The notes beneath the pieces are model-generated. The model was not told where the DNA came from. It did not search any database and worked only from the letters and a program-made list of their open reading frames with translations. From the UHGV virus genome UHGV-0245401: a stretch of DNA of 29,189 nt; one strand, 5' to 3'. This document shows, one piece after another, positions 1,611 through 24,356 of the stretch. The stretch's first letter is position 1; each line of letters starts with the position of its first letter. Source of the DNA: a virus. Both the position numbers and the translations under genes were made by a program.

Positions 1611-1829
1611 ATGTTTCATTGTCCTTTATGCCAGCATGCCGCACATGCGCGTACAAGTCGCTATATCACTGACACGACAAAAGAGCGTTATCACCAGTGC
1701 CAGAACGTGAATTGCAGCGCCACGTTCATCACTTATGAGTCGGTACAGCGATACATCGTGAAGCCGGGAGAAGTCCACGCCGTAAAACCGCACCCGTTGC
1801 CGTCAGGGCAGCAAATTATGTGGATGTAA
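1611..1829 (+). CDS. ogr: Ogr, zinc-finger activator of late transcription (72 aa)
   Basis: MFHCPLCQHAAHARTSRYITDTTKERYHQCQNVNCSATF… with a C-x2-C…C-x4-C zinc-finger pattern and the 72-aa length of P2 Ogr. The longer upstream ATG at 1479 was rejected. Confidence 0.9.
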   Translation: MFHCPLCQHAAHARTSRYITDTTKERYHQCQNVNCSATFITYESVQRYIVKPGEVHAVKPHPLPSGQQIMWM

Positions 1830-1840
1830 TTACAAACAGA

Positions 1841-1870
1841 AAGCCCCTCAGTCGAGGGGCTTTCTGTTTT
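1841..1870 (+). terminator. Intrinsic terminator after ogr
   Basis: GC-rich hairpin GCCCCTC-agtc-GAGGGGC followed by TTTCTGTTTT. Confidence 0.7.
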
Positions 1871-1969
1871 GGGGAATATTCTTCATTAAAAGTAGTGGAT
1901 CACGTTTAATAAACTATGTTTATCATATACTTAAAAGTCAATCTTTAAAGTTGGACAGGTTGGTGGAAA

Positions 1970-2611
1970 ATGGAAAAAGTTATAATTGAGCTTGATAATC
2001 GTTGGGAGTTAGCTGATTTCGCGGTCTTAACGAAAGAGTATTTGCAGCTATATGGTTTTTTTTATGGCCTAAAAGGAGGATCAAGAGGATATTCAACAAT
2101 GCCTTGGGAGGGTGGGCACAGTGTGGTGAACTTTTTTAGAGGGGCTTACAGTGCGACTCCACCAGATTTACGTCCTGTAGTGAAAAAAATTCAGTATGCC
2201 TCTCCTGGCTTTATTGAATTGTCTGCTCTTATTGATATCTCTTGGCAGATTGCTGAGTTAGTTACTGCTGTTGGTGGAAGTATTCTGGCTGCCAACAAAG
2301 TTTACGATCAGGTGATGCGTACATATCGACAAAGAGAATGGGCAAAGTTGAAATCAGAGAAGCTGCGTATACAGAATCAAATTAAAGAGATTGAACTTGT
2401 TTCTGACGCAGTTAAATCACTTGAATCTGTGATGGCACTTAGTGAAGAACAACGTAAAAACTTGGTTCAACTATCGGGGGCAGATGAACTGGTTCAGTTA
2501 AAGATACTTTTGGCTGTTTACCGACGGTTATCTCCTCTTGTTGAGTTGCAAAACAGCGGGAAAGCTAATTTTTCTGCTGGGAAAAATAAAAATTTAAAAG
2601 CGTCCGATTAA
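1970..2611 (+). CDS. Hypothetical 213-aa protein of unknown function, an AT-rich moron between ogr and attP
   Basis: Uninterrupted 213-codon ORF in a visibly AT-rich island. GGTGG Shine-Dalgarno-like motif about 7 nt upstream of the ATG, with TATACT (-10-like) at 1926-1931. The C-terminal half is rich in K/E/L/Q heptad-like sequence and there is a hydrophobic stretch around aa 80-110. No family recognised. Confidence 0.65.
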   Translation: MEKVIIELDNRWELADFAVLTKEYLQLYGFFYGLKGGSRGYSTMPWEGGHSVVNFFRGAYSATPPDLRPVVKKIQYASPGFIELSALIDISWQIAELVTAVGGSILAANKVYDQVMRTYRQREWAKLKSEKLRIQNQIKEIELVSDAVKSLESVMALSEEQRKNLVQLSGADELVQLKILLAVYRRLSPLVELQNSGKANFSAGKNKNLKASD

Positions 2612-2619
2612 ACGGACGC

Positions 2620-2856
2620 TGAACGATGTGGACGCTATGTGGACAGCGGTTGACATAAATCCATTTATATCATCAGGTTAGGTGCTTTTTTGTGACACCA
2701 TCCCTGTCTTCCCCCACATGATGTGGGGGTTTTTTTTATCAATTACTTACATGCAATCAAAAGTAAAAACAGGTACTTATCGAAAGCTGTAAGGGTTTGG
2801 AGCGGTTTCAAAATTTCTTGAGTGTGGACACTATGTGGACACTCAGAGGGGGAAAT
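2620..2856. other. Putative attP region with integrase arm-type repeats (TGTGGAC-N4-TGTGGACA at 2627-2645 and 2823-2841)
   Basis: Two tandem TGTGGACA-type direct repeats flank about 170 bp directly downstream of the int 3' end. They resemble the arm-type Int sites I recall for P2, but the P2 core sequence itself is not present. Confidence 0.5.
2709..2738 (+). terminator. Hairpin plus T-run (CCCCCACAT-g-ATGTGGGGG-TTTTTTTT); terminator-like, possibly part of the att core
   Basis: Perfect 9-bp inverted repeat followed by eight T residues on the + strand. Confidence 0.5.
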
Positions 2857-6093: not shown

Positions 6094-6365
6094 GTATTCG
6101 TATCGAAATTGGCGAACGTTATGTCGTTACCAGTGACAGCTTTCAGTTTATTCTCCACGAGAAAAAGAGAGCGGAAAGCGGTAAAAACGCCGGTCAGGAA
6201 TGGCTGGCGGTGGTTGGTTATTACCCGAAATTAAGCCAGCTCGTTTCCGGCCTGATGCATCACGATATTCTGACCGGAAGCGCAAAGTCTTTTGCTGATT
6301 TAAACGCGCAGGTTGAGCAACTCAGCAAGCGTTGTTCTGAGGCTTTTGGCTCATATGGCCGTTAA
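6090..6365 (+). CDS. Hypothetical early protein in the orf83 position
   Basis: 91-aa ORF overlapping both neighbours. Confidence 0.6.
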   Translation: MSIRIEIGERYVVTSDSFQFILHEKKRAESGKNAGQEWLAVVGYYPKLSQLVSGLMHHDILTGSAKSFADLNAQVEQLSKRCSEAFGSYGR

Positions 6366-8631
6366 AGCCTCCGGGCGTTTTGTCCCTCCGTCAGCATTTG
6401 CCGCAGGCACCGGTAAGGCGTTTACCGGTGCTTATGCATGGAACGCGCCACGCGAGGCTGTCGGGCGCGAAAGACCTCTTACACGTGACGAGATGCGTCA
6501 GGTGCAAGGTGTTTTATCCACGATTAACCGCCTGCCTTACTTTTTGCGCTCGCTGTTTACTTCACGCTATGACTACATCCGGCGCAATAAAAGCCCGGTG
6601 CACGGGTTTTATTTCCTCACATCCACTTTTCAGCGTCGTTTATGGCCGCGCATTGAGCGTGTGAATCAGCGCCATGAAATGAACACCGACGCGTCGATGC
6701 TGTTTCTGGCAGAGCGTGACCACTATGCGCGCCTGCCGGGAATGAATGACAAGGAGCTGAAAAAGTTTGCCGCCCGTATCTCATCGCAGCTTTTCATGAT
6801 GTATGAGGAACTCAGCGATGCCTGGGTGGATGCGCATGGCGAGAAAGAATCGCTGTTTACGGATGAGGCGCAGGCTCACCTCTATGGTCATGTTGCTGGC
6901 GCTGCACGTGCTTTCAATATTTCCCCTCTCTACTGGAAAAAATACCGTAAAGGACAGATGACCACGAGGCAGGCATATTCTGCCATTGCCCGTCTGTTTA
7001 ACGATGAGTGGTGGACTCATCAGCTTAAAGGCCAGCGTATGCGCTGGCATGAAGCGTTACTGATAGCTGTCGGGGAGGTCAATAAAGACCGTTCTCCTTA
7101 TGCCAGTAAACATGCCATTCGTGATGTGCGTGCGCGCCGCCAGGCAAATCTGGAATTTCTTAAATCGTGTGACCTTGAAAACAGGGAAACCGGCGAGCGC
7201 ATCGACCTTATCAGTAAGGTGATGGGCAGTATTTCTAATCCTGAAATTCGCCGGATGGAGCTGATGAACACCATTGCCGGTATTGAGCGTTACGCCGCCG
7301 CAGAGGGTGATGTGGGGATGTTTATCACGCTGACCGCGCCGTCAAAGTATCACCCGGCACGTCAGGTCGGAAAAGGCGAAAGTAAAACCGTCCAGCTTAA
7401 TCACGGCTGGAATGATGAGGCATTTAATCCAAAGGATGCGCAGCGATATCTCTGCCGTATCTGGAGCCTGATGCGCACGGCATTCAAGGATAATGACTTA
7501 CAGGTCTACGGTTTGCGTGTCGTCGAGCCACACCACGACGGAACGCCGCACTGGCATATGATGCTTTTTTGTAATCCACGCCAGCGTAACCAGATTATTG
7601 AAATCATGCGTCGCTATGCGCTCAAAGAGGATGGCGACGAAAGAGGAGCCGCGCGAAACCGTTTTCAGGCAAAACACCTTAACCGGGGCGGTGCTGCGGG
7701 ATATATCGCGAAATACATCTCAAAAAACATCGACGGCTATGCACTGGATGGTCAGCTCGATAATGATACCGGTAGGCCGCTGAAAGATACTGCGGCGGCT
7801 GTTACCGCATGGGCATCAACGTGGCGCATCCCGCAATTTAAAACGGTTGGCCTGCCGACAATGGGAGCTTACCGTGAGCTACGTAAATTGCCTCGCGGCG
7901 TCAGCATTGCTGATGAATTTGACGAACGCGTGGAGGCTGCACGCGCCGCCGCAGACAGTGGCGATTTTGCGCTGTATATCAGCGCGCAGGGCGGGGCAAA
8001 TGTCCCGCGCGATTGTCAGACTGTCAGGGTCGCCCGTAGCCCGTCGGATGACGTTAACGAATACGAGGAAGAAGTCGAGAGAGTGGTCGGCATTTACGCG
8101 CCGCATCTCGGCGCGCGTCATATTCATATCACCAGAACGACGGACTGGCGCATTGTGCCGAAAGTTCCGGTCGTTGAGCCTTTGACTTTAAAAAGCGGCA
8201 TCGCCGCGCCTCGGAGTCCTGTCAATAACTGTGGAAAGCTCACCGGTGGTGATACTTCGTTACCGGCTCCCACACCTTCTGAGCACGCCGCAGCAGTGCT
8301 TAATCTGGTAGATGACGGTGTTATCGAATGGAGTGACCCGGAGGTCGTGATGGCGCTCAGGGGCGCATTAAAACACGGACTGAGAACACCAAATCGTCAG
8401 CAAAGAAACGGAAGCCCGTTAAAACCACATGAAATTGCACCATCGGCCAGACTGACCCGGTCGGAAAGAATGCAAATTACCCGTATCCGCGTTGACCTCG
8501 CTCAGAACGGTATCAGGCCGCAACGATGGGAGCTTGAGGCGCTGGCGCGTGGCGCGACCGTAAATTATGACGGGAAAAAATTCACGTATCCGGTTGCTGA
8601 TGAGTGGCCGGGGTTCTCGTTACCCATTTGA
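6355..8631 (+). CDS. A: Replication initiator A, rolling-circle nickase
   Basis: Large ORF with the HUH-type motif …GTPHWHMMLF… and the active-site tyrosine motif …AGYIAKYISKNIDG…. Start taken at MAVKASGRF (6355) rather than the upstream in-frame ATG at 6313. Confidence 0.9.
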   Translation: MAVKASGRFVPPSAFAAGTGKAFTGAYAWNAPREAVGRERPLTRDEMRQVQGVLSTINRLPYFLRSLFTSRYDYIRRNKSPVHGFYFLTSTFQRRLWPRIERVNQRHEMNTDASMLFLAERDHYARLPGMNDKELKKFAARISSQLFMMYEELSDAWVDAHGEKESLFTDEAQAHLYGHVAGAARAFNISPLYWKKYRKGQMTTRQAYSAIARLFNDEWWTHQLKGQRMRWHEALLIAVGEVNKDRSPYASKHAIRDVRARRQANLEFLKSCDLENRETGERIDLISKVMGSISNPEIRRMELMNTIAGIERYAAAEGDVGMFITLTAPSKYHPARQVGKGESKTVQLNHGWNDEAFNPKDAQRYLCRIWSLMRTAFKDNDLQVYGLRVVEPHHDGTPHWHMMLFCNPRQRNQIIEIMRRYALKEDGDERGAARNRFQAKHLNRGGAAGYIAKYISKNIDGYALDGQLDNDTGRPLKDTAAAVTAWASTWRIPQFKTVGLPTMGAYRELRKLPRGVSIADEFDERVEAARAAADSGDFALYISAQGGANVPRDCQTVRVARSPSDDVNEYEEEVERVVGIYAPHLGARHIHITRTTDWRIVPKVPVVEPLTLKSGIAAPRSPVNNCGKLTGGDTSLPAPTPSEHAAAVLNLVDDGVIEWSDPEVVMALRGALKHGLRTPNRQQRNGSPLKPHEIAPSARLTRSERMQITRIRVDLAQNGIRPQRWELEALARGATVNYDGKKFTYPVADEWPGFSLPI

Positions 8632-8846
8632 GTAAAAACACAACGTGATTTGATATGGCATTGAATGGCTTATGCGGAGCAGTTATGGGGCAGCAGAAGG
8701 TCAATAGCATGCTGAATTAGAAGGCTAAATGCTATTGAGTGACTAGCATGTCGGTAAGGACAGCCGTTTGATCCGGGTCATAAAAGGCCATCCATTTAGT
8801 CTAATAAAATCATTGCGGGTAACCTTATGTCGACGCATAATTCGTC

Positions 8847-8861
8847 TTGAGCGAAGTCTTG
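8847..8861 (+). repeat. 15-bp direct repeat TTGAGCGAAGTCTTG, copy 1 of 2
   Basis: Exact 15-mer also found at 9111-9125. Confidence 0.6.
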
Positions 8862-8890
8862 TCAGTCTTTCATCGTATTGATGATGGGCG

Positions 8891-8922
8891 CAAAAAAACC
8901 ACCCTGGCAGGTGGTTTTTTTG
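8891..8922. terminator. Bidirectional intrinsic terminator (A7-hairpin-T7)
   Basis: AAAAAAACCACCCTGGCAGGTGGTTTTTTT: a GC stem flanked by an A-run and a T-run, able to terminate gene A on + and the small ORF on -. Confidence 0.65.
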
Positions 8923-8933
8923 TTTGAAGCATA

Positions 8934-9047
8934 TTAAAGCATAATGCTGACATTGATATTACTGACGTTTACTGACAAACCACTCGGACTACCGTTTGGA
9001 TAGCCAAAGAGGGCCAGAACGAGAATGCAGTAATAGCATTTCTTCAT
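8934..9047 (-). CDS. Small ORF, 37 aa (MKKCYYCILVLALFGYPNGSPSGLSVNVSNINVSIML), with a hydrophobic signal-peptide-like N-terminus
   Basis: Consensus AGGAGG Shine-Dalgarno 4 nt upstream of the ATG on the minus strand, with the bidirectional terminator directly downstream. Sits in the old/tin accessory position. No homolog recognised. Confidence 0.35.
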   Translation of the reverse strand: MKKCYYCILVLALFGYPNGSPSGLSVNVSNINVSIML

Positions 9048-9110
9048 ATTGCCTCCTGTAAGTAGAGGGCAACTTCCACCGGTATATGCGCTTCTTAGGT
9101 GGAATGACTT

Positions 9111-9125
9111 TTGAGCGAAGTCTTG
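9111..9125 (+). repeat. 15-bp direct repeat TTGAGCGAAGTCTTG, copy 2 of 2
   Basis: Exact copy of 8847-8861. Embedded in GACTT-ttgagcg-AAGTC, which has inverted symmetry. Lies about 65-80 nt upstream of the small ORF start. Confidence 0.6.
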
Positions 9126-9525
9126 CCCTGAAATAATGCTCTGTTTAAACGCAAAGTGATTTGGCATATCACCGAACAGAGAGCCGGAAAAACACAACAT
9201 ATAGTATGTCGTTGTTTCTAGGCATACATTCTATGTTGTGTAACAAGGGCTTTGCATTAAACATGTTTGAGATTTTATTGATGTAGCTCAAAGTAAAAAA
9301 CAGAGACTACGGATGATAAGGTCTTGAAAGCAATGTAAATTTTTTAAAGTTGCCAATTGCTTAAAAATGTACAGTTGCGGTATGGCGTACTTAAAAAGCT
9401 ATGCATGCAACAAGTGAATGTTTTTGCATGCGTTGGGGATGTCCGTTCAGGCGGCGTGCGGTCAGGACTGGTGCGGATCCATAGTATCTATGCAACTGCA
9501 TTAAAACCGCCCCGTGAAGCGGGCG

Positions 9526-9544
9526 GGCGAGGCGGGGAAAGCAC
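9526..9544. other. cos: cos, the 19-nt cohesive end sequence GGCGAGGCGGGGAAAGCAC
   Basis: Exact match to the P2 cohesive-end sequence as I recall it. Located just outside the portal gene Q, as in P2. Confidence 0.7.
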
Positions 9545-18449: not shown

Positions 18450-18894
18450 GTTTAAGCGTTTTGAAGACCGGCTGACCGGACTGATTGAATCGCTGTCACC
18501 GTCAGGGCGTCGGCGACTGAGTGCCGAACTGGCGAAACGTCTGCGTCAGAGTCAGCAGCGTCGGGTGATGGCACAGAAAGCCCCGGACGGCACACCCTAC
18601 GCGCCACGTCAGCAGCAGAGCGCCAGAAAAAAGACCGGTCGCGTTAAGCGAAAAATGTTTGCGAAACTTATCACCAGTCGTTTTTTGCATATCCGCGCCA
18701 GCCCTGAACAGGCATCAATGGAGTTTTACGGCGGAAAGTCACCGAAAATCGCCAGTGTGCATCAGTTTGGTCTGTCGGAAGAAAACCGGAAGGACGGTAA
18801 GAAAATTGATTATCCGGCGCGTCCTCTGCTCGGCTTTACCGGTGAGGATGTGCAGATGATTGAAGAGATTATCCTGGCTCACCTCGACCGTTAG
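18442..18894 (+). CDS. S: Tail completion protein gpS (150 aa)
   Basis: 150 aa, overlapping the R stop, in the P2 S position. Confidence 0.85.
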   Translation: MNEFKRFEDRLTGLIESLSPSGRRRLSAELAKRLRQSQQRRVMAQKAPDGTPYAPRQQQSARKKTGRVKRKMFAKLITSRFLHIRASPEQASMEFYGGKSPKIASVHQFGLSEENRKDGKKIDYPARPLLGFTGEDVQMIEEIILAHLDR

Positions 18895-18960
18895 TTGTGC
18901 CATTCCAGACACCTCATCGTCACATTGCCGCCGGTATGACCCGGCGGCATCCTTCCCGTT

Positions 18961-19596
18961 ATGAACACTCTCGCAAATATTCAGGAACTCGCGCGCGCAC
19001 TGCGCAACATGATCCGCACCGGCATTATCGTCGAAACCGACCTTAACGCCGGTCGCTGCCGTGTGCAGACCGGCGGCATGTGCACCGACTGGCTTCAGTG
19101 GCTGACCCATCGCGCCGGACGTTCGCGCACATGGTGGGCACCTTCCGTGGGGGAACAGGTGCTGATTCTGGCCGTGGGCGGTGAACTCGACACGGCGTTC
19201 GTTCTGCCGGGGATTTATTCCGGCGATAACCCCGCGCCGTCTGCGTCGGCGGATGCCCTGCATATCCGTTTCCCTGACGGGGCGGTGATTGAATATGAAC
19301 CCGAAACCAGTGCACTCACGGTAAGCGGAATTAAAACGGCCAGCGTGACGGCTTCTGATTCTGTTACTGCCACGGTACCGGTGGTCACGGTGAAATCGTC
19401 AACCCGTGTCACTCTGGACACACCGGAAGTGGTCTGCACTAACAAACTGACTACCGGCACGCTGGAAGTGCAGAAGGGCGGGACGATGCGCGGCAACATT
19501 GAACACACCGGCGGTGAACTCTCATCAAACGGTAAGGTACTGCATACCCACAAACACCCCGGCGACAGCGGCGGCACAACCGGGAGTCCTTTATGA
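18961..19596 (+). CDS. V: Baseplate spike protein gpV (211 aa)
   Basis: 211 aa, MNTLANIQELARALRNMIRTGII…, matching P2 V. Confidence 0.9.
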   Translation: MNTLANIQELARALRNMIRTGIIVETDLNAGRCRVQTGGMCTDWLQWLTHRAGRSRTWWAPSVGEQVLILAVGGELDTAFVLPGIYSGDNPAPSASADALHIRFPDGAVIEYEPETSALTVSGIKTASVTASDSVTATVPVVTVKSSTRVTLDTPEVVCTNKLTTGTLEVQKGGTMRGNIEHTGGELSSNGKVLHTHKHPGDSGGTTGSPL

Positions 19597-21457: not shown

Positions 21458-22614
21458 CAGTGAAATACTACGCCATTCTGACTAATCAGGGCGCAGCACG
21501 GCTGGCTAACGCGACGATGCTCGGCAGTAAGCTGAATCTGACGCAAATGGCCGTTGGTGATGCGAATGGTGTCTTGCCGACACCAGACCCGGCACAGACA
21601 AAACTGATTAACCAGAAACGCATCGCGCCGCTGAATCTTCTGAGTGTTGACCCGAACAACCAGAGCCAGATTATTGCGGAGCAAATCATCCCTGAGAACG
21701 AGGGCGGATTCTGGATCCGTGAGATTGGGCTTTATGATGATGAAGGCGTACTCATTGCGGTGGCGAACTGCCCGGAAACGTACAAACCGCAGTTGCAGGA
21801 AGGCAGTGGTCGTACCCAGACTATCCGCATGATTCTGGTTGTCACGAATACCGAAGCTATCACGCTGAAAATCGACCCGTCGGTGGTACTGGCGACCCGT
21901 AAATACGTGGATGATGAAGTCCTGGAATTAAGGCTGTATGTGGATGACCAGATGAGAAACCACATTGCCGCACAGGATCCTCATACCCAGTATGCGCAGA
22001 AACATAATCCGACATTTACCGGAGAACCAAAAGCGCCGACGCCTGCCGCAGGAAATAACACCACGCGGATTGCGACCACTGCGTTTGTTCAGGCCGCTAT
22101 TACCGCTCTGATTAACGGTGCGCCAGCCACGCTGGACACACTGAAAGAAATTGCCGCAGCCATTAACAATGACCCGAAATTCAGTACCACCATTAACAAT
22201 GCGCTGTCAGGTAAGCAGCCACTGGATGAGACGCTGACTCATTTGAGTGGAAAGGATGTAGCTGGTCTTCTCGCATACCTTGGTTTGGGAGAAGCGGCAA
22301 AACGGAATGTGGGAACAGGGGAAAATCAGATACCTGATATGTCATCATATGCATCAGGTTCAGGCTGGCGAAAAATGCCAGATGGTTCAATTGAACAGTG
22401 GGGACGAATTAGTTTTCCTGGTGAACACGGGCCTGTATCCGCCAATGTTTCATTCCCGATTCCATTTACACAGACACCGGGCATTGTAATTGTGTGCGAT
22501 GGTGGTTTCGGGGGCGGGAATATGTGGGGGGCGACCAACTGGAGCACTACCGGCTTCATAGCTCACTGCAATTATGGTCTTGAAGGTGGTGCGTTTTTCG
22601 CTAAGGGCTGGTAA
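21454..22614 (+). CDS. H: Tail fibre protein gpH (386 aa): conserved N-terminal part plus a variable C-terminal tip encoded inside the invertible segment
   Basis: N-terminus [42 protein letters not shown]… is the conserved P2-family H domain. The C-terminal ~115 aa lie beyond the crossover site at 22268-22293. Confidence 0.88.
22268..22293 (+). other. hix/gix-like 26-bp inversion crossover site inside H (TTCTCGCATACC-TT-GGTTTGGGAGAA)
   Basis: Two 12-bp half-sites with 10/12 dyad symmetry around a central TT. Its 3' 14 bp are identical to the inverted partner at 24093-24118. Confidence 0.65.
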
Positions 22615-23057
22615 TGATGAAATATCTGTACGTAAACAACCTGGCATATCCTTACGAACTTCAGTCTCTTTATGTTGAAAAAGGTGAATGGCCTGAAGAA
22701 AAAGGTGTTGATATAGACGAAGTAATTTTCAGGGAATATTTCTATGACACACCACCAGAAGGAAAATACAGATGTGTTGGAGAAGATGGACTGCCTGCAT
22801 GGGCAGATATTCCTCCACCAACACGTGAAGAACAAATTGCATCAGCCGAAACTAAAAAGCAGCAATTGATTAATCAGGCCAACGATTATATGAACAGTAG
22901 ACAATGGGTTGGTAAAGCGGCTATTGGTCGTCTGAAAGGTGAGGAACTGGCGCAATATAATTTGTGGCTGGATTATCTGGACGCACTGGAGCTGGTCGAT
23001 ACTTCCAGTGCACCAGATATTGAATGGCCTACTCCTCCGGCAGTTCAGGCCAGATGA
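22614..23057 (+). CDS. G: Tail fibre assembly chaperone (Tfa, P2 G-like), paired with the currently expressed fibre tip
   Basis: 147 aa with a C-terminal Tfa signature …LWLDYLDALELVDTSSAPDIEWPTPP…. AT-rich 5' half. Confidence 0.85.
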   Translation: MMKYLYVNNLAYPYELQSLYVEKGEWPEEKGVDIDEVIFREYFYDTPPEGKYRCVGEDGLPAWADIPPPTREEQIASAETKKQQLINQANDYMNSRQWVGKAAIGRLKGEELAQYNLWLDYLDALELVDTSSAPDIEWPTPPAVQAR

Positions 23058-23640
23058 CATCCGGCGCGGTGCTGGTATCTGTTGCCGTCACCGCGTCAAT
23101 GTAATCCAGCACCGTGTTAAGTCGGCTGGTTTCTGCCTGCGTCAGATTCCGTCCGGCCCGTAATTTCAGTTGAATCAGACTGATGGAAGCCATTGCAGTA
23201 TCAATCAGCGACTGGCGTTGTGCTTCTGCTGCATCTACTGCGGCGCTATGCTGTGCATCGGTATCCGTCACCCATTTCTCACCATCCCATTTATCGTATG
23301 GTGTTAACGGGGCGATAGTGGTTGTATTATCAGGGTAATCACCCGGAGCTGTGATTTCTTTTGATTCTCCTGTTTCGGTGCTAAAGACGATTTCACCGCG
23401 ATGGTCTGGCACATATTCCCATGAGTTAAAATCTGCAGAACGGCAGATTGCATAACCAGCCTTATGTGTAACTGGTGCATCTAAACAAGAACATGCCGGG
23501 ATACCGACGCCAACCGTAAGATATTCAGTTGATGTGGAAATATATTCCCGCGTTTCTCCGTTGTAGTTGTAAACGGTAATGAAGCCAGCCTCTGTGGCAA
23601 ATCCGTTTTCATCCAAAGTGATTTTTTTTGTGGTCATCAT
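23029..23640 (-). CDS. Alternative tail fibre assembly chaperone (Tfa') on the opposite strand inside the invertible segment
   Basis: 203 aa with a C-terminal Tfa signature …LNTVLDYIDAVTATDTSTAPDVIWPELPEE. Convergent with G and overlapping it by 29 bp. Confidence 0.8.
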   Translation of the reverse strand: MMTTKKITLDENGFATEAGFITVYNYNGETREYISTSTEYLTVGVGIPACSCLDAPVTHKAGYAICRSADFNSWEYVPDHRGEIVFSTETGESKEITAPGDYPDNTTTIAPLTPYDKWDGEKWVTDTDAQHSAAVDAAEAQRQSLIDTAMASISLIQLKLRAGRNLTQAETSRLNTVLDYIDAVTATDTSTAPDVIWPELPEE

Positions 23641-24146
23641 GCTGCCCTTACAATGTAGTTAAATGCAATGTTACGTGGCCTTGTTTCTGCTGATGTTCTT
23701 GCACTCCTGGATAAATCAAGTGTCACACCATAGTAACTAAATGCATTACCAGTTGATGGAGCGGCATATTTAACCCCAGAACTAGAACCAACATTAAAAA
23801 CTCCAGATGCTGAGGAAGCTGACCCCATAGTGTTATCAATCAGAGAACCCGTAACATTTTGCATAGCGTCAAGTTGTTCGCTTAATAAAGCGCGTCCACT
23901 ATCAACATCACGCCCGTCATCCCAGCCACGAATAAATTCACCTCGTAAATCAGGCAATTTATTTGTCGGATAAGCCTTTGCCAGTTCCGGGTATTCTTCA
24001 GCAGAAAAAAACGCACCGTTGCATTTCAGCCAGCCTGTTGGCGGAGTGGTGGAAGGCCACGGAACAGGCACGCCAACGGGTAATGCCGAACCTTCTCCCA
24101 AACCAACGTTTAAGAAAATGCAGAGATTACGGCTAACTGGCATCAT
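23637..24146 (-). CDS. Alternative tail-fibre C-terminal tip (Hv'), promoterless in this orientation
   Basis: …LPDLRGEFIRGWDDGRDVDSGRALL…RPRNIAFNYIVRAA resembles variable tail-fibre tips of Mu/P1-type invertible systems. Its 5' end carries the partner crossover site in the same frame (…GLGE…) as in H. Confidence 0.7.
   Translation of the reverse strand: MMPVSRNLCIFLNVGLGEGSALPVGVPVPWPSTTPPTGWLKCNGAFFSAEEYPELAKAYPTNKLPDLRGEFIRGWDDGRDVDSGRALLSEQLDAMQNVTGSLIDNTMGSASSASGVFNVGSSSGVKYAAPSTGNAFSYYGVTLDLSRSARTSAETRPRNIAFNYIVRAA
24093..24118 (-). other. hix/gix-like inversion crossover site, inverted partner of 22268-22293
   Basis: The minus strand reads TTTTCTTAAACG-TT-GGTTTGGGAGAA. The right half is identical to the site in H and the left half is a degenerate copy. 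Confidence 0.6.
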
Positions 24147-24173: not shown

Positions 24174-24356
24174 ATGCTTATTGGCTATGTCCGCGTGTCA
24201 ACAAATGACCAGAATACGGAATTGCAGCGTAACGCGCTGGAGTGCGCAGGATGTGAGCTGATTTTTGATATTGGCCTGTCCACGCTCTATAAAAAATTCC
24301 CCTCATCAGCGACAAAGAATAAATTGTGTCATCCCTTAGCCAACCGGGACAAATAG
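24174..24356 (+). pseudogene. Remnant of a Hin/Gin/Pin-family serine DNA invertase with an in-frame internal deletion, 60 aa remaining
   Basis: N-terminus MLIGYVRVSTNDQNTELQRNALECAGCELIF matches the invertase N-terminus including the catalytic serine, and is fused directly to a C-terminal …LSTLYKK… segment. About 130 aa of catalytic and dimerisation domain are missing. Confidence 0.75.

What the first reader, a model, noticed from the sequence alone, without database searches (positions are those of the whole stretch)
8632..9525. The canonical P2 accessory loci (old, tin, orf91, Z/fun) are all missing and replaced
P2-like phages are known to swap cargo at the A-cos (old/tin) and G-FI (Z/fun) junctions. 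In this genome the first holds only the small-ORF and repeat module and the second holds the inversion cassette and invertase remnant, while the only sizeable unknown ORF has moved to the ogr-attP junction. Function should therefore be sought at a non-canonical site.
Basis: partly seen in the sequence, partly recalled or inferred. Interest (0 to 1): 0.4.

Follow-up and report, generated by a model that had tools for sequence, protein, structure and literature searches.

The report
Stripped-down P2 phage with relocated cargo
This is a complete, unusually small P2-type E. coli phage that lacks all the classical P2 accessory genes. In their place it carries an unannotated 37-residue peptide gene behind a copied oxygen-sensing host promoter, a tail-fibre switching cassette, and one defence-toxin-like gene at a rarely used site beside the integration site.

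Summary
The window is a circular 29,189-bp Peduovirus, essentially identical to the cpxP-fieF prophage of E. coli MNCRE44. It has no homologue of old, tin, orf91, Z/fun or orf30.

The A-cos gap (8632-9525) is not empty filler. About 770 bp form a conserved cassette that PGAP leaves unannotated. It is present in about 3% of complete E. coli genomes and always lies directly after gene A. It holds:
- an nrdDG-type promoter with two FNR boxes;
- a structured 173-nt leader;
- a 37-aa hydrophobic ORF;
- a bidirectional terminator;
- a convergent candidate small RNA whose 5' end pairs 17 bp with the leader.

This layout resembles a par/Fst-style type I toxin-antitoxin locus. That reading is inferred, not shown.

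The G-FI gap holds an invertible tail-fibre cassette and a 60-aa invertase remnant.

A 760-bp low-GC insertion lies between the ogr terminator and the attP P arm. It encodes a 213-aa protein homologous only to the C-terminal domain of the PD-T4-10B toxin. It has no antitoxin gene and no DUF6575 domain.

Swapping of cargo at the two canonical sites is well documented, so most of the finding is ordinary.

The parts
6355..8631 (+). Replication gene A, the left flank of hotspot 1
   Evidence: 98% identical to P2 gpA over residues 1-755.
8632..8812 (.). Left part of the A-proximal cassette. It is probably non-coding, or the 3' UTR of the early (A) transcript.
   Evidence: This is the least conserved part of the cassette, about 79% identical between alleles. 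No ORF keeps its length across 9 alleles.
8813..8841 (+). Predicted sigma-70 promoter of a convergent small RNA: -35 TTGCGG at 8813-8818, a 17-bp spacer, and -10 CATAAT at 8836-8841
   Evidence: Read directly from the sequence. The -10 hexamer and the spacer length are invariant in 9 alleles, and the -35 is TTGCGG or TTGCGA. The consensus scan did not report it, because the -35 matches only 3 of 6 positions.
8847..8922 (+). Candidate antisense RNA of about 76 nt. Its 5' end is the 15-nt repeat copy TTGAGCGAAGTCTTG (8847-8861) and its 3' end is the shared terminator.
   Evidence: Repeat found. The fold has z = -4.4. The duplex with the peptide leader is -40.6 kcal/mol, against -24.7 +/- 3.0 for shuffles, with 0 of 1,000 shuffles reaching it.
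8891..8922 (.). Bidirectional intrinsic terminator (CAAAAAAACCACC / GGTGGTTTTTTTG). It is the first terminator after gene A and also the terminator of the peptide gene.
   Evidence: 13-nt arms, 100% complementary. Invariant in 9 alleles.
8934..9047 (-). 37-aa ORF MKKCYYCILVLALFGYPNGSPSGLSVNVSNINVSIML. The stop codon is at 8934-8936, the ATG at 9045-9047 and the SD AGGAGG at 9052-9057.
   Evidence: The ORF is always 37 codons in 31 related loci, with 4 peptide variants, several synonymous differences and a TAA/TAG stop. It is annotated as a CDS only in phage MET_P1_103_31. PGAP annotates nothing here.
9048..9220 (-). Leader of about 173 nt for the peptide mRNA. It contains repeat copy 2 (9111-9125) and an SD-sequestering hairpin.
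   Evidence: Nearly invariant between alleles. The whole-mRNA fold has z = -5.3. The unpaired probability of the GGAGG bases of the SD is 0.01-0.32.
9228..9291 (-). nrdDG-type promoter: -10 TAGAAT (9233-9228), FNR box 1 (9260-9247) and FNR box 2 (9291-9278). The boxes are centred at -33.5 and -64.5 from the predicted start near 9220.
   Evidence: Window 9246-9347 matches the treC-nrdD intergenic region of all 5,426 E. coli genomes at about 78-80%. Box 2, TTGAGCTACATCAA, is identical to the published nrdDG site 2. Box 1 matches 12 of 14 positions. The published sequence and spacing are in PMC10425943.
9402..9544 (.). cos-proximal region shared by P2-like phages, and the 19-nt cos site (9526-9544)
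   Evidence: Query positions 771-894 match many P2-like and 186-like phages. cos is identical to P2 cosL.
1611..1863 (+). ogr and its terminator, the left boundary of the moron
   Evidence: 98.6% identical to P2 Ogr. Homology with cargo-less prophages ends at 1863.
1864..2623 (+). 760-bp insertion (a moron; about 41-42% GC in 1-kb windows) carrying the 213-aa ORF at 1970-2611
   Evidence: It is absent from sister prophage L047 at the same att site, where homology resumes at 2624. GC profile. PADLOC PD-T4-10_B gives E = 1.3e-34 over profile positions 139-346 of 353. There is no Pfam, PHROG or NCBIfam family.
2624..2856 (.). attP: P-arm repeats GATGTGGACGCTATGTGGACAG (2626-2647), the core/overlap region of about 2694-2740, and P'-arm repeats at 2822-2843
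   Evidence: The match to the attR side ends at 2740. The match to the attL side of MNCRE44 starts at 2694. The arm repeats were read from the sequence.
22268..24118 (.). Invertible tail-fibre segment bounded by 27-nt inverted repeats. It holds the C-terminus of H, G-type chaperone 22614-23057 (+), alternative chaperone 23029-23640 (-) and alternative fibre C-terminus 23637-24146 (-).
   Evidence: The segment lies in the opposite orientation in the otherwise identical MNCRE44 prophage.
24174..24356 (+). Serine-invertase remnant: the first ~30 residues are fused to the last ~15 residues of the HTH
   Evidence: Pfam Resolvase matches residues 3-35. HTH_7 profile positions 30-44 of 45 match residues 30-44. 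PGAP calls the MNCRE44 copy an incomplete recombinase.

Best explanation
The window is the excised, circular form of a minimal P2-like coliphage that integrates between cpxP and fieF. All five dispensable, AT-rich P2 morons (orf30, Z/fun, orf91, tin, old) are absent. Three other things occupy the variable sites.

(1) Directly after gene A lies a conserved, unannotated 770-bp cassette. Its promoter is copied from the host nrdDG promoter. It has two FNR boxes at -64.5 and -33.5, so it is probably switched on without oxygen. It drives a ~330-nt mRNA whose long leader hides the ribosome-binding site in a hairpin. The mRNA encodes a 37-aa peptide with a hydrophobic N-terminus. A convergent ~76-nt RNA, or alternatively the 3' end of the early A transcript, ends at the same bidirectional terminator. 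Its 5' end can pair over 17 bp with the leader, 63 nt upstream of the AUG. I read this as a type I toxin-antitoxin-like, RNA-controlled small-protein locus, laid out like par/Fst of plasmid pAD1. Shown: the sequence elements, their conservation and the promoter homology. Inferred: transcription, FNR dependence, RNA pairing and any toxicity.

(2) The Z/fun slot is filled by a Gin/Pin-type invertible tail-fibre cassette. Its own invertase has decayed, but the segment has still flipped.

(3) A 760-bp moron between the ogr terminator and the attP P arm encodes a solitary homologue of the C-terminal domain of the PD-T4-10B toxin. It most likely acts as a lysogen-expressed, single-gene abortive-infection or defence effector. 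This is inferred from homology and context only.
For: Identity and completeness.

Absence of the canonical loci.

The cassette:
- It lies immediately after the A stop codon in all 31 loci examined, with or without further cargo.
- It occurs in 158 of 5,426 complete E. coli genomes, with nothing annotated there.
- Conservation is high from about 8800 to 9340 and drops on both sides.
- The ORF is always 37 codons, with synonymous changes between alleles.
- The promoter is homologous to the nrdD upstream region in every E. coli genome. Box spacing and -10 position are preserved.
- An exact 15-nt direct repeat straddles the bidirectional terminator.
- The predicted duplex is -40.6 kcal/mol and is reached by 0 of 1,000 shuffles. 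The SD is predicted to be paired.
- The mRNA fold has z = -5.3.

The moron:
- Its boundaries are exact, set by comparison with a cargo-less sister prophage.
- PADLOC gives E = 1.3e-34.
- The family has 394 representative clusters, in a short solitary class and a long class.
- The long class has an N-terminal DUF6575 domain and an overlapping upstream gene.
- PD-T4-10B is a toxin neutralised by PD-T4-10A, and the pair protects against T4 (PMC9519451).
- Short homologues sit in prophage accessory positions and in Vibrio cassette arrays.

The inversion cassette.
Against: - There are no expression data for either RNA or for the peptide.
- The small-RNA promoter has a weak -35, and the consensus scan did not call it.
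- The two repeat copies show no compensatory changes. Only a 13-nt core is invariant, and the edges erode in some alleles.
- The hydrophobic stretch of the peptide is only about 13 residues. The peptide has no homologue outside this cassette and matches no Pfam toxin family. No Rfam family reaches its threshold.
- The 213-aa protein lacks the antitoxin partner and the N-terminal domain of the validated system. It is unknown which domain of PD-T4-10B is toxic.
- The AlphaFold model (pLDDT 85.6) has no informative structural neighbour.
- No clear promoter was found upstream of the ORF.
Confidence: 0.6

Rival explanations
1. The A-cos spacer is decaying filler: a remnant left after the old/tin-type cargo was deleted, kept only because it lies between two essential elements (gene A with ori, and cos). 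The small ORF and the repeat have no function.
For: No gene caller except one annotates anything there. The peptide has no homologues elsewhere. The repeat shows no covariation.
Against: The cassette is found in alleles that differ by about 14-20%, yet positions 8800-9340 stay at or above about 90% while both flanks fall to about 79%. The ORF keeps its exact length and stop codon despite synonymous changes. The -10 element and both FNR boxes keep the nrdDG spacing. The cassette persists next to very different additional cargo.
Confidence: 0.12
2. The cassette is a plain lysogenic-conversion gene: a non-toxic small membrane or exported peptide made under anaerobiosis, with no antisense control. 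The terminator simply ends the early operon, and the 15-nt repeat is a protein-binding site or a coincidence.
For: The FNR/nrdDG promoter homology is the strongest single feature. The N-terminus looks like a signal anchor: MKK followed by 13 hydrophobic residues. The small-RNA promoter is weak. There is no covariation between the repeat copies.
Against: By my own estimate, an exact 15-nt direct repeat in about 900 bp is expected about 4e-4 times by chance. Its copies fall at the predicted 5' end of a terminator-ended transcript and in the leader of the convergent mRNA. The SD-sequestering hairpin and the highly structured leader are typical of tightly repressed toxin mRNAs.
Confidence: 0.25
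3. The 213-aa ORF is not a defence gene. It is a domain relic or a gene of other function, such as a regulator, an anti-defence factor or a fitness factor, that merely shares a domain with PD-T4-10B.
For: It lacks PD-T4-10A and the DUF6575 N-terminal domain. PADLOC or DefenseFinder would not call a system from it. The fold search is uninformative.
Against: The short form is a large, well-conserved family in its own right. Most of the 394 clusters are 205-245 aa, and 13 alignment columns are invariant. Members occur as single mobile genes at prophage ends, beside other candidate defence genes and in Vibrio cassette arrays. That is the usual context of single-gene defence systems.
Confidence: 0.3
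4. The element is a defective, degrading prophage, and the missing cargo reflects general decay.
For: The genome is 4.4 kb shorter than P2, and the invertase is a remnant.
Against: Every essential P2 gene is intact at 92-100% identity, and cos and attP are complete. The window is a closed circle with a reconstituted attP, as expected for an excised, active phage. The same genome is found in many unrelated E. coli strains.
Confidence: 0.05

Closest known systems
P2 hotspot 1 (A-cos/Q: orf91, tin, old) and hotspot 2 (G-FI: Z/fun), described by Odegrip 2006, Rousset 2022 (PMC9122126), Vassallo 2022 (PMC9519451) and iLund4u (bioRxiv 10.1101/2024.10.15.618418)
   Same: The flanking genes are the same, and so is the principle: variable, dispensable cargo between conserved modules. 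DNA invertases and inverted tail-fibre genes in the Z/fun locus have already been noted. Sister phages with this cassette carry typical hotspot cargo.
   Different: Here hotspot 1 contains no annotated protein gene at all, and hotspot 2 contains only host-range genes. Neither holds a recognisable defence system. A 2026 survey reports no P2 genome in which both main hotspots lack genes (PMC13586616). This genome fits that statement only because tail-fibre genes fill hotspot 2.
PD-T4-10 toxin-antitoxin defence system (Vassallo et al. 2022)
   Same: The 213-aa protein is homologous to the C-terminal ~205 residues of the toxin PD-T4-10B (E = 1.3e-34). It is prophage-borne in E. coli.
   Different: There is no PD-T4-10A gene and no N-terminal DUF6575 domain. 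It is a single gene and sits at ogr-attP. It belongs to a separate short subfamily.
par (Fst / RNA I-RNA II) type I toxin-antitoxin locus of Enterococcus plasmid pAD1 (comparison from my own knowledge of the literature)
   Same: There are convergent toxin mRNA and small RNA, a shared bidirectional terminator, and DNA direct repeats that make the two RNAs complementary near the 5' part of the toxin mRNA. There is also a structured leader hiding the SD and a peptide of about 35 aa with a hydrophobic N-terminus.
   Different: There is no sequence similarity and the host is Gram-negative. There is one conserved repeat instead of two. The tail of the peptide is polar and uncharged rather than charged. 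The toxin promoter is an FNR-type regulated promoter. Nothing has been shown experimentally.
E. coli nrdDG promoter (FNR sites at -64.5 and -33.5; NrdR boxes)
   Same: About 100 bp are homologous at about 80%. FNR site 2 is identical, site 1 matches 12 of 14 positions, and the -10 element is at the same distance. There are NrdR-box-like 16-mers near the start site.
   Different: It drives a 37-aa ORF in a phage instead of the anaerobic ribonucleotide reductase. Downstream of the -10 region the sequences are unrelated. The NrdR-like boxes are shifted, and their spacing is 18 bp in this allele (16 bp in the others).
Gin/Cin/Pin invertible tail-fibre segments (Mu G, P1 C, e14 P)
   Same: There are inverted crossover sites, two alternative fibre C-termini each with its own chaperone, and an adjacent serine-invertase gene.
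   Different: The invertase is reduced to a 60-aa remnant. Inversion must depend on an invertase supplied in trans, or it predates the deletion.

Membership tests
P2-like phage (Peduovirus) | P2 gene order, with close homologues of all essential P2 genes and the P2 cos site | tested here: met
   tblastn of P2 proteins gives 92-100% identity for the replication, head, lysis and tail genes. cos is identical. Megablast gives 96-97% identity to many Peduovirus genomes.
Canonical P2 accessory genes (old, tin, orf91, Z/fun, orf30) | A homologue is present anywhere in the genome | tested here: not met
   The best tblastn E-values are 0.14-5.3, on short spurious segments.
PD-T4-10 defence system | Protein homologous to PD-T4-10B | tested here: met
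   PADLOC PDLC04024 gives E = 1.3e-34, but only over profile positions 139-346 of 353.
PD-T4-10 defence system | Full-length B protein with the N-terminal (DUF6575-like) domain | tested here: not met
   The window protein starts at profile position 139. Full-length homologues P0204 and P0167 cover positions 1-345 and hit DUF6575.
PD-T4-10 defence system | Overlapping upstream antitoxin gene (PD-T4-10A) | tested here: not met
   No ORF of 40 aa or more other than the 213-aa ORF lies inside the 760-bp insertion (1864-2623), on either strand. Full-length homologues have an overlapping gene of 142-155 aa.
PD-T4-10 defence system | Toxicity neutralised by A, and protection against T-even phages | not testable with these tools
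   This needs cloning and plaque assays. The phenotype of the reference system is in PMC9519451.
Type I toxin-antitoxin locus (par/Fst-like layout) | Small hydrophobic peptide ORF (under 60 aa) that is conserved as coding | tested here: met
   37 aa in all 31 loci, with synonymous differences and a retained stop codon.
Type I toxin-antitoxin locus (par/Fst-like layout) | Antisense RNA gene with its own promoter, convergent with the toxin gene | tested here: inconclusive
   The -10 CATAAT and the 17-bp spacer are conserved and the -35 is TTGCGG or TTGCGA. The consensus scan did not call it, and there are no transcript data.
Type I toxin-antitoxin locus (par/Fst-like layout) | Complementarity between the two RNAs through direct repeats and a shared bidirectional terminator | tested here: met
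   There is a 15-nt exact repeat and a 13-bp hairpin. The duplex is 17 bp at -40.6 kcal/mol, reached by 0 of 1,000 shuffles. No covariation is available to test it.
Type I toxin-antitoxin locus (par/Fst-like layout) | Sequence membership in a known toxin or antitoxin family (Fst/Ldr, Hok, Ibs, Zor and others; Rfam antitoxin RNAs) | tested here: not met
   Pfam finds no family. Rfam has no match at gathering score, and the best antitoxin model, OrzO-P, scores 21 bits against a threshold of 60.
Type I toxin-antitoxin locus (par/Fst-like layout) | Peptide toxicity, and its repression by the RNA | not testable with these tools
   This needs expression experiments.
FNR-activated nrdDG-type promoter | Two FNR boxes centred at about -64.5 and -33.5, with a -10 element at the native distance | tested here: met
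   Boxes at 9278-9291 (14 of 14 positions) and 9247-9260 (12 of 14), and -10 TAGAAT at 9228-9233. The geometry equals that of the published nrdDG promoter. The divergent alleles have TTGAT in box 1 and -10 TAAAAT, as in nrdDG.
FNR-activated nrdDG-type promoter | FNR-dependent, anaerobic transcription | not testable with these tools
   This needs reporter or transcript assays in wild-type and fnr strains.
Gin/Cin/Pin-type invertible tail-fibre cassette | Inverted crossover sites flanking alternative fibre C-termini and chaperones; evidence of inversion | tested here: met
   27-nt inverted repeats. Caudo_TAP twice, plus a Collar/fibre C-terminus. The orientation is opposite in the otherwise identical MNCRE44 prophage.
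Gin/Cin/Pin-type invertible tail-fibre cassette | Intact cognate serine invertase | tested here: not met
   A 60-aa ORF retains only Resolvase positions 2-42 and the end of HTH_7. PGAP calls it an incomplete recombinase.

The most novel reading that the evidence does not exclude
The A-proximal cassette is a working, RNA-regulated toxic-peptide module. It sits in the main P2 defence hotspot and is wired to a captured nrdDG promoter, so it would respond to oxygen through FNR and possibly to the dATP/ATP balance through NrdR. It would serve as a minimal abortive-infection or prophage-maintenance device. Such a module is invisible to protein-based hotspot surveys, so hotspots scored as gene-less or defence-less may not be empty.
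Probability: 0.2. Interest if true: 0.65.

Novelty: new variant of a known kind. Interest (0 to 1): 0.4.

Why it matters
Cargo turnover at the two P2 hotspots is textbook, so the bare observation adds little. Three points deserve attention.

(i) This phage lineage occurs in about 3% of complete E. coli genomes, yet it carries no recognisable defence system in either canonical hotspot. It is a natural 'minimal P2' for testing what the hotspots contribute.

(ii) The supposedly empty hotspot 1 holds a conserved, unannotated small-gene cassette driven by a copied host promoter that senses anaerobiosis and possibly the dNTP pool. If it is a type I toxin-antitoxin locus or a defence module, surveys that count only annotated proteins undercount hotspot content.

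(iii) A solitary, antitoxin-less relative of the PD-T4-10B toxin sits at a rarely used cargo site next to attP. It offers a simple way to find out which domain of that toxin is the effector, and whether the ogr-attP junction is a genuine third cargo site in coliphages.

Tried and rejected
- Rfam on the whole window at gathering score found nothing. On the spacer at E <= 5 it found only weak terminator-driven hits (RNAI, Phe leader, OrzO-P at 21 of 60 bits).
- Pfam, PHROGs and NCBIfam found nothing for the 213-aa ORF or the small ORF. PADLOC found nothing for the small ORF.
- The peptide search was limited. A 37-aa query is too short for the protein index, and the 88-aa extended ORF found only 3 near-identical clusters. 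tblastn found only 3 phage records. A degenerate DNA pattern found 28 IMG/VR contigs but none among the GTDB species representatives. A full-text search for the peptide string found nothing.
- tblastn of the 213-aa protein against 50,697 phage records found no match.
- A second direct repeat, 8636-8665 / 9147-9176 (73% identical), is rejected as functional because its core is not conserved in the other alleles.
- Small ORFs in 8632-8840 are rejected because their lengths are not conserved.
- Covariation between the two 15-mer copies gave no signal: only erosion at the edges, no compensatory change.
- I considered that the cassette derives from a small gene upstream of nrdD in another species. 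I found no support for this. blastn against the E. coli genomes matches only the ~100-bp promoter stretch.
- The idea that the unknown ORF 'moved' from a canonical site is rejected, because it is unrelated to old, tin and fun and is a discrete insertion.
Full report
**What the window is.**
- Megablast places the window among E. coli, Salmonella and Yersinia Peduovirus genomes at 96-97% identity.
- I translated all 42 genes of P2 (NC_001895, annotation) and ran tblastn against the window, extended by its first 1,000 bases so that genes crossing the window ends are not missed.
- All replication, head, lysis and tail genes are present at 92-100% identity and in P2 order.
- H and G are of another type. 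int, C and cox are at 43-51%, so they belong to another immunity and integration type.
- Gene U runs across the end and start of the window, so the 29,189 bp form a closed circle.
- The window is 99.995-100% identical to a prophage integrated between cpxP and fieF in E. coli MNCRE44. The only difference is one inverted segment.
- This att site is the one reported for prophage Wphi1 of E. coli W (PMC3032704).

**Checking the observation.**
- Gene A stops at 8631, and the 19-nt P2 cos sequence is at 9526-9544. The coordinates of the finding are therefore exactly the A-cos spacer.

| Junction | This genome | P2 |
|---|---|---|
| A-cos | 894 bp | 3,255 bp |
| G-FI | 1,358 bp | 2,377 bp |
| ogr-int | 1,027 bp | 207 bp |

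**The A-cos spacer.**

Distribution:
- The last ~125 bp (9402-9525) are the cos-proximal sequence shared by many P2- and 186-like phages.
- The remaining ~770 bp form a discrete cassette. It occurs in 158 of 5,426 complete E. coli genomes. 81 copies are at >=99% identity and 69 are at 80-90%. PGAP annotates nothing in it.
- It also occurs in three phage records and in 28 IMG/VR contigs.
- In every one of 31 loci it begins directly after the A stop codon.
- Some phages have nothing else, like the window. Others add 1.8-2.7 kb of cargo between the cassette and the cos-proximal region: an ImmA/IrrE peptidase, a membrane protein and a 313-aa protein. Others add 2.1-2.7 kb between cos and Q: AAA-ATPase pairs or an 835-aa protein.
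- The cassette is therefore an independent, conserved unit and not simply what is left of the cargo.

Conservation:
- Across nine distinct alleles, conservation is low at 8680-8800. It is high from about 8800 to 9340 and falls again beyond 9340.

Elements on the minus strand:
- A strong SD (AGGAGG, 9057-9052) precedes a 37-codon ORF (9047-8937) that is followed by a perfect hairpin terminator (8922-8891).
- The ORF is 37 codons in all loci, in four peptide variants. Several differences between alleles are synonymous, and the stop codon is TAA or TAG.
- One phage annotation calls it a CDS.

The promoter:
- Window 9246-9347 matches, at about 78-80%, a ~100-bp stretch present in all 5,426 E. coli genomes. 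That stretch lies between treC and nrdD, upstream of nrdD.
- The alignment and the published nrdDG promoter oligonucleotide (PMC10425943) show three things. FNR site 2, TTGAGCTACATCAA, is identical (9291-9278). FNR site 1 matches 12 of 14 positions in this allele, and has the canonical TTGAT in the divergent alleles. The -10 hexamer, TAGAAT here and TAAAAT in the other alleles and in nrdDG, lies at the same distance.
- With the start placed near 9220, the boxes are centred at -33.5 and -64.5, as in nrdDG.
[quoted passage not shown] I therefore infer anaerobic, FNR-dependent transcription of a ~330-nt mRNA with a 173-nt leader.
- Two 16-mers resembling NrdR boxes flank the start site. This comparison uses a consensus from my own memory, so it is only a lead.

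The RNAs:
- The mRNA is predicted to be unusually structured (z = -5.3).
- The SD lies in the hairpin UUGCCCUCU/AGGAGGCAA, and the unpaired probability of the GGAGG bases is 0.01-0.32.
- On the plus strand, a conserved -10 (CATAAT, 8836-8841) lies 17 bp after TTGCGG or TTGCGA. It would start an RNA at about 8847 that ends at the same, bidirectional terminator.
- Its first 15 nt, TTGAGCGAAGTCTTG, are an exact direct repeat of 9111-9125 in the leader. Because the two RNAs come from opposite strands, they are complementary there.
- They can form 17 contiguous pairs, counting one G-U, 63 nt upstream of the AUG. The duplex is -40.6 kcal/mol, against -24.7 +/- 3.0 for dinucleotide shuffles, and 0 of 1,000 shuffles reach it.
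- The 3' end of the early A transcript would carry the same sequence, since this is the first terminator after A.
- This layout is that of a type I toxin-antitoxin locus of the par/Fst kind: a convergent mRNA and small RNA, direct repeats across a bidirectional terminator, a hidden SD and a short hydrophobic peptide. The comparison comes from my own knowledge of the literature.

Caveats:
- There is no expression evidence.
- The -35 is weak, and the consensus scan missed the promoter.
- Only a 13-nt core of the repeat is invariant, and there are no compensatory changes.
- The hydrophobic stretch is short.
- No Pfam or Rfam family matches.
- No homologue exists outside the cassette.

**The G-FI junction.**
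- H (386 aa) is followed by a Caudo_TAP chaperone. On the other strand there is a second chaperone and a fibre C-terminus with a Collar domain.
- The segment is bounded by 27-nt inverted repeats at 22268-22294 and 24092-24118.
- Next to it, a 60-aa ORF retains the first ~30 residues of a serine invertase fused to the end of its HTH. PGAP marks the MNCRE44 copy as an incomplete recombinase.
Invertases in this locus have been noted before.
- The 1.83-kb segment lies in the opposite orientation in MNCRE44, although the flanks are 100% identical. Inversion therefore still happens, presumably through an invertase supplied in trans.

**The ogr-attP junction.**
- A sister prophage at the same att site (L047) passes from the ogr terminator straight into the Int arm repeats. 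Window 1864-2623 is therefore a precise 760-bp insertion. Its GC content is about 41-42% in 1-kb windows.
- The attP core/overlap region is about 2694-2740.
- The 213-aa ORF has no Pfam, PHROG or NCBIfam family. It does match PADLOC PD-T4-10_B (E = 1.3e-34), but only over profile positions 139-346 of 353.
- PD-T4-10 is a two-gene system with overlapping ORFs. B is toxic, A neutralises it, and the pair protects against T4 (PMC9519451).
- An exhaustive HMMER search finds 394 representative clusters of two kinds. Short proteins of about 205-245 aa consist of this domain alone. Long proteins of about 320-400 aa carry it at the C-terminus.
- Long members cover the full PADLOC profile, have an N-terminal DUF6575 hit and have an overlapping upstream gene of 142-155 aa.
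- The window protein belongs to the short class and has no partner gene.
- Short homologues occur as single genes at the ends of prophages. One lies beside a DUF4917 gene in a Pseudomonas prophage, others lie in Vibrio cassette arrays, and some stand alone.
- The AlphaFold model (pLDDT 85.6) shows a small alpha/beta domain followed by a 50-residue helix and a helical C-terminus. It has no informative structural neighbour.
- I therefore file the protein as a solitary PD-T4-10B-C-domain protein and a probable single-gene abortive-infection or defence effector. It is not a member of the PD-T4-10 system.

**How unusual is the site?**
- I fetched 80 IMG/VR loci through Ogr. In 34 the contig is cut at ogr.
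- Of the 46 informative loci, 42 run from ogr through about 240-320 bp to host genes (yegQ, fieF or pflB). One has the 213-aa gene, two have an unrelated 133-aa ORF, and one has an IS.
- The sample is redundant and restricted to near-identical Ogr proteins.
- The 911-bp ogr-attP segment occurs in 158 complete E. coli genomes.
- No record among 50,697 phage genomes encodes a homologue.
- In the literature, Rousset et al. and Vassallo et al. describe only the A-Q and Z/fun hotspots. [quoted passage not shown] A 2026 NAR study lists minor hotspots between int and att, between int and A, and downstream of gpL. It also states that no P2 genome was found in which the two main hotspots both had no genes.
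The site is not entirely unrecognised either.

**Verdict.**
- Most of it is the ordinary modular turnover of P2-like phages.
- Two things go beyond that. One is a conserved, unannotated small-gene cassette with a captured nrdDG/FNR promoter in the 'empty' main hotspot. The other is a solitary, antitoxin-less PD-T4-10B-like gene at a rarely used cargo site.
- Both are new variants of known kinds, and neither has experimental support yet.

Noticed in passing
window 22280-24109, compared with L004 33646-35475: The tail-fibre segment is inverted relative to the otherwise 99.99-100% identical MNCRE44 prophage, although the adjacent invertase gene is only a 60-aa remnant. Inversion therefore probably relies on an invertase supplied in trans.
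   Followed up: partly
window 9190-9243 (minus strand): Two 16-mers resembling NrdR boxes (ACACAACATAGAATGT and ATACTATATGTTGTGT) flank the predicted start of the peptide mRNA and form an inverted repeat (9192-9201 / 9232-9241). The linker is 18 nt in this allele and 16 nt in the divergent alleles. The consensus was recalled from memory and was not tested statistically.
   Followed up: partly
L015, L021, L025, L027, L030-L032, L036, L041 (between cos and Q): In sister phages with the same A-proximal cassette, 2.1-2.7 kb of cargo (AAA-ATPase plus a small partner, or an 835-aa protein) lies on the Q side of cos, not between A and cos. 'Hotspot 1' is therefore really two insertion points on either side of cos.
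   Followed up: partly
L066 and L073, 52-453 nt after the ogr stop (minus strand): A different cargo occupies the same ogr-attR junction in two cpxP-fieF prophages: a 133-aa ORF with a signal-peptide-like N-terminus and no Pfam or NCBIfam family.
   Followed up: partly
window 8865-8837 (minus strand): The only promoter-like site that the consensus scan reported in the spacer (CTGACA-17-AATTAT) overlaps repeat copy 1. It would transcribe leftwards, antisense to the 3' end of gene A. Its significance is unknown.
   Followed up: no
window 2613-2619 and 2631-2637: GGACGCT occurs on both sides of the right boundary of the 760-bp insertion. This could be a microhomology used when the moron was acquired.
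   Followed up: no
window 18894-18961: The S-V junction, which holds orf30 in P2, is reduced to 66 bp. All five dispensable P2 morons are therefore absent, not just the four named in the finding.
   Followed up: yes
L005 5001-6668; L010 and L011: Short homologues of the 213-aa protein lie next to a DUF4917 gene beside the repressor of a Pseudomonas prophage, and inside Vibrio arrays of small same-strand genes that look like integron cassettes.
   Followed up: partly
window 2711-2737: The attP core contains a terminator-like hairpin, CCCCCACATGATGTGGGGG followed by a T-run. It is shared with the host cpxP-fieF intergenic region, so integration regenerates a terminator at both prophage ends.
   Followed up: no
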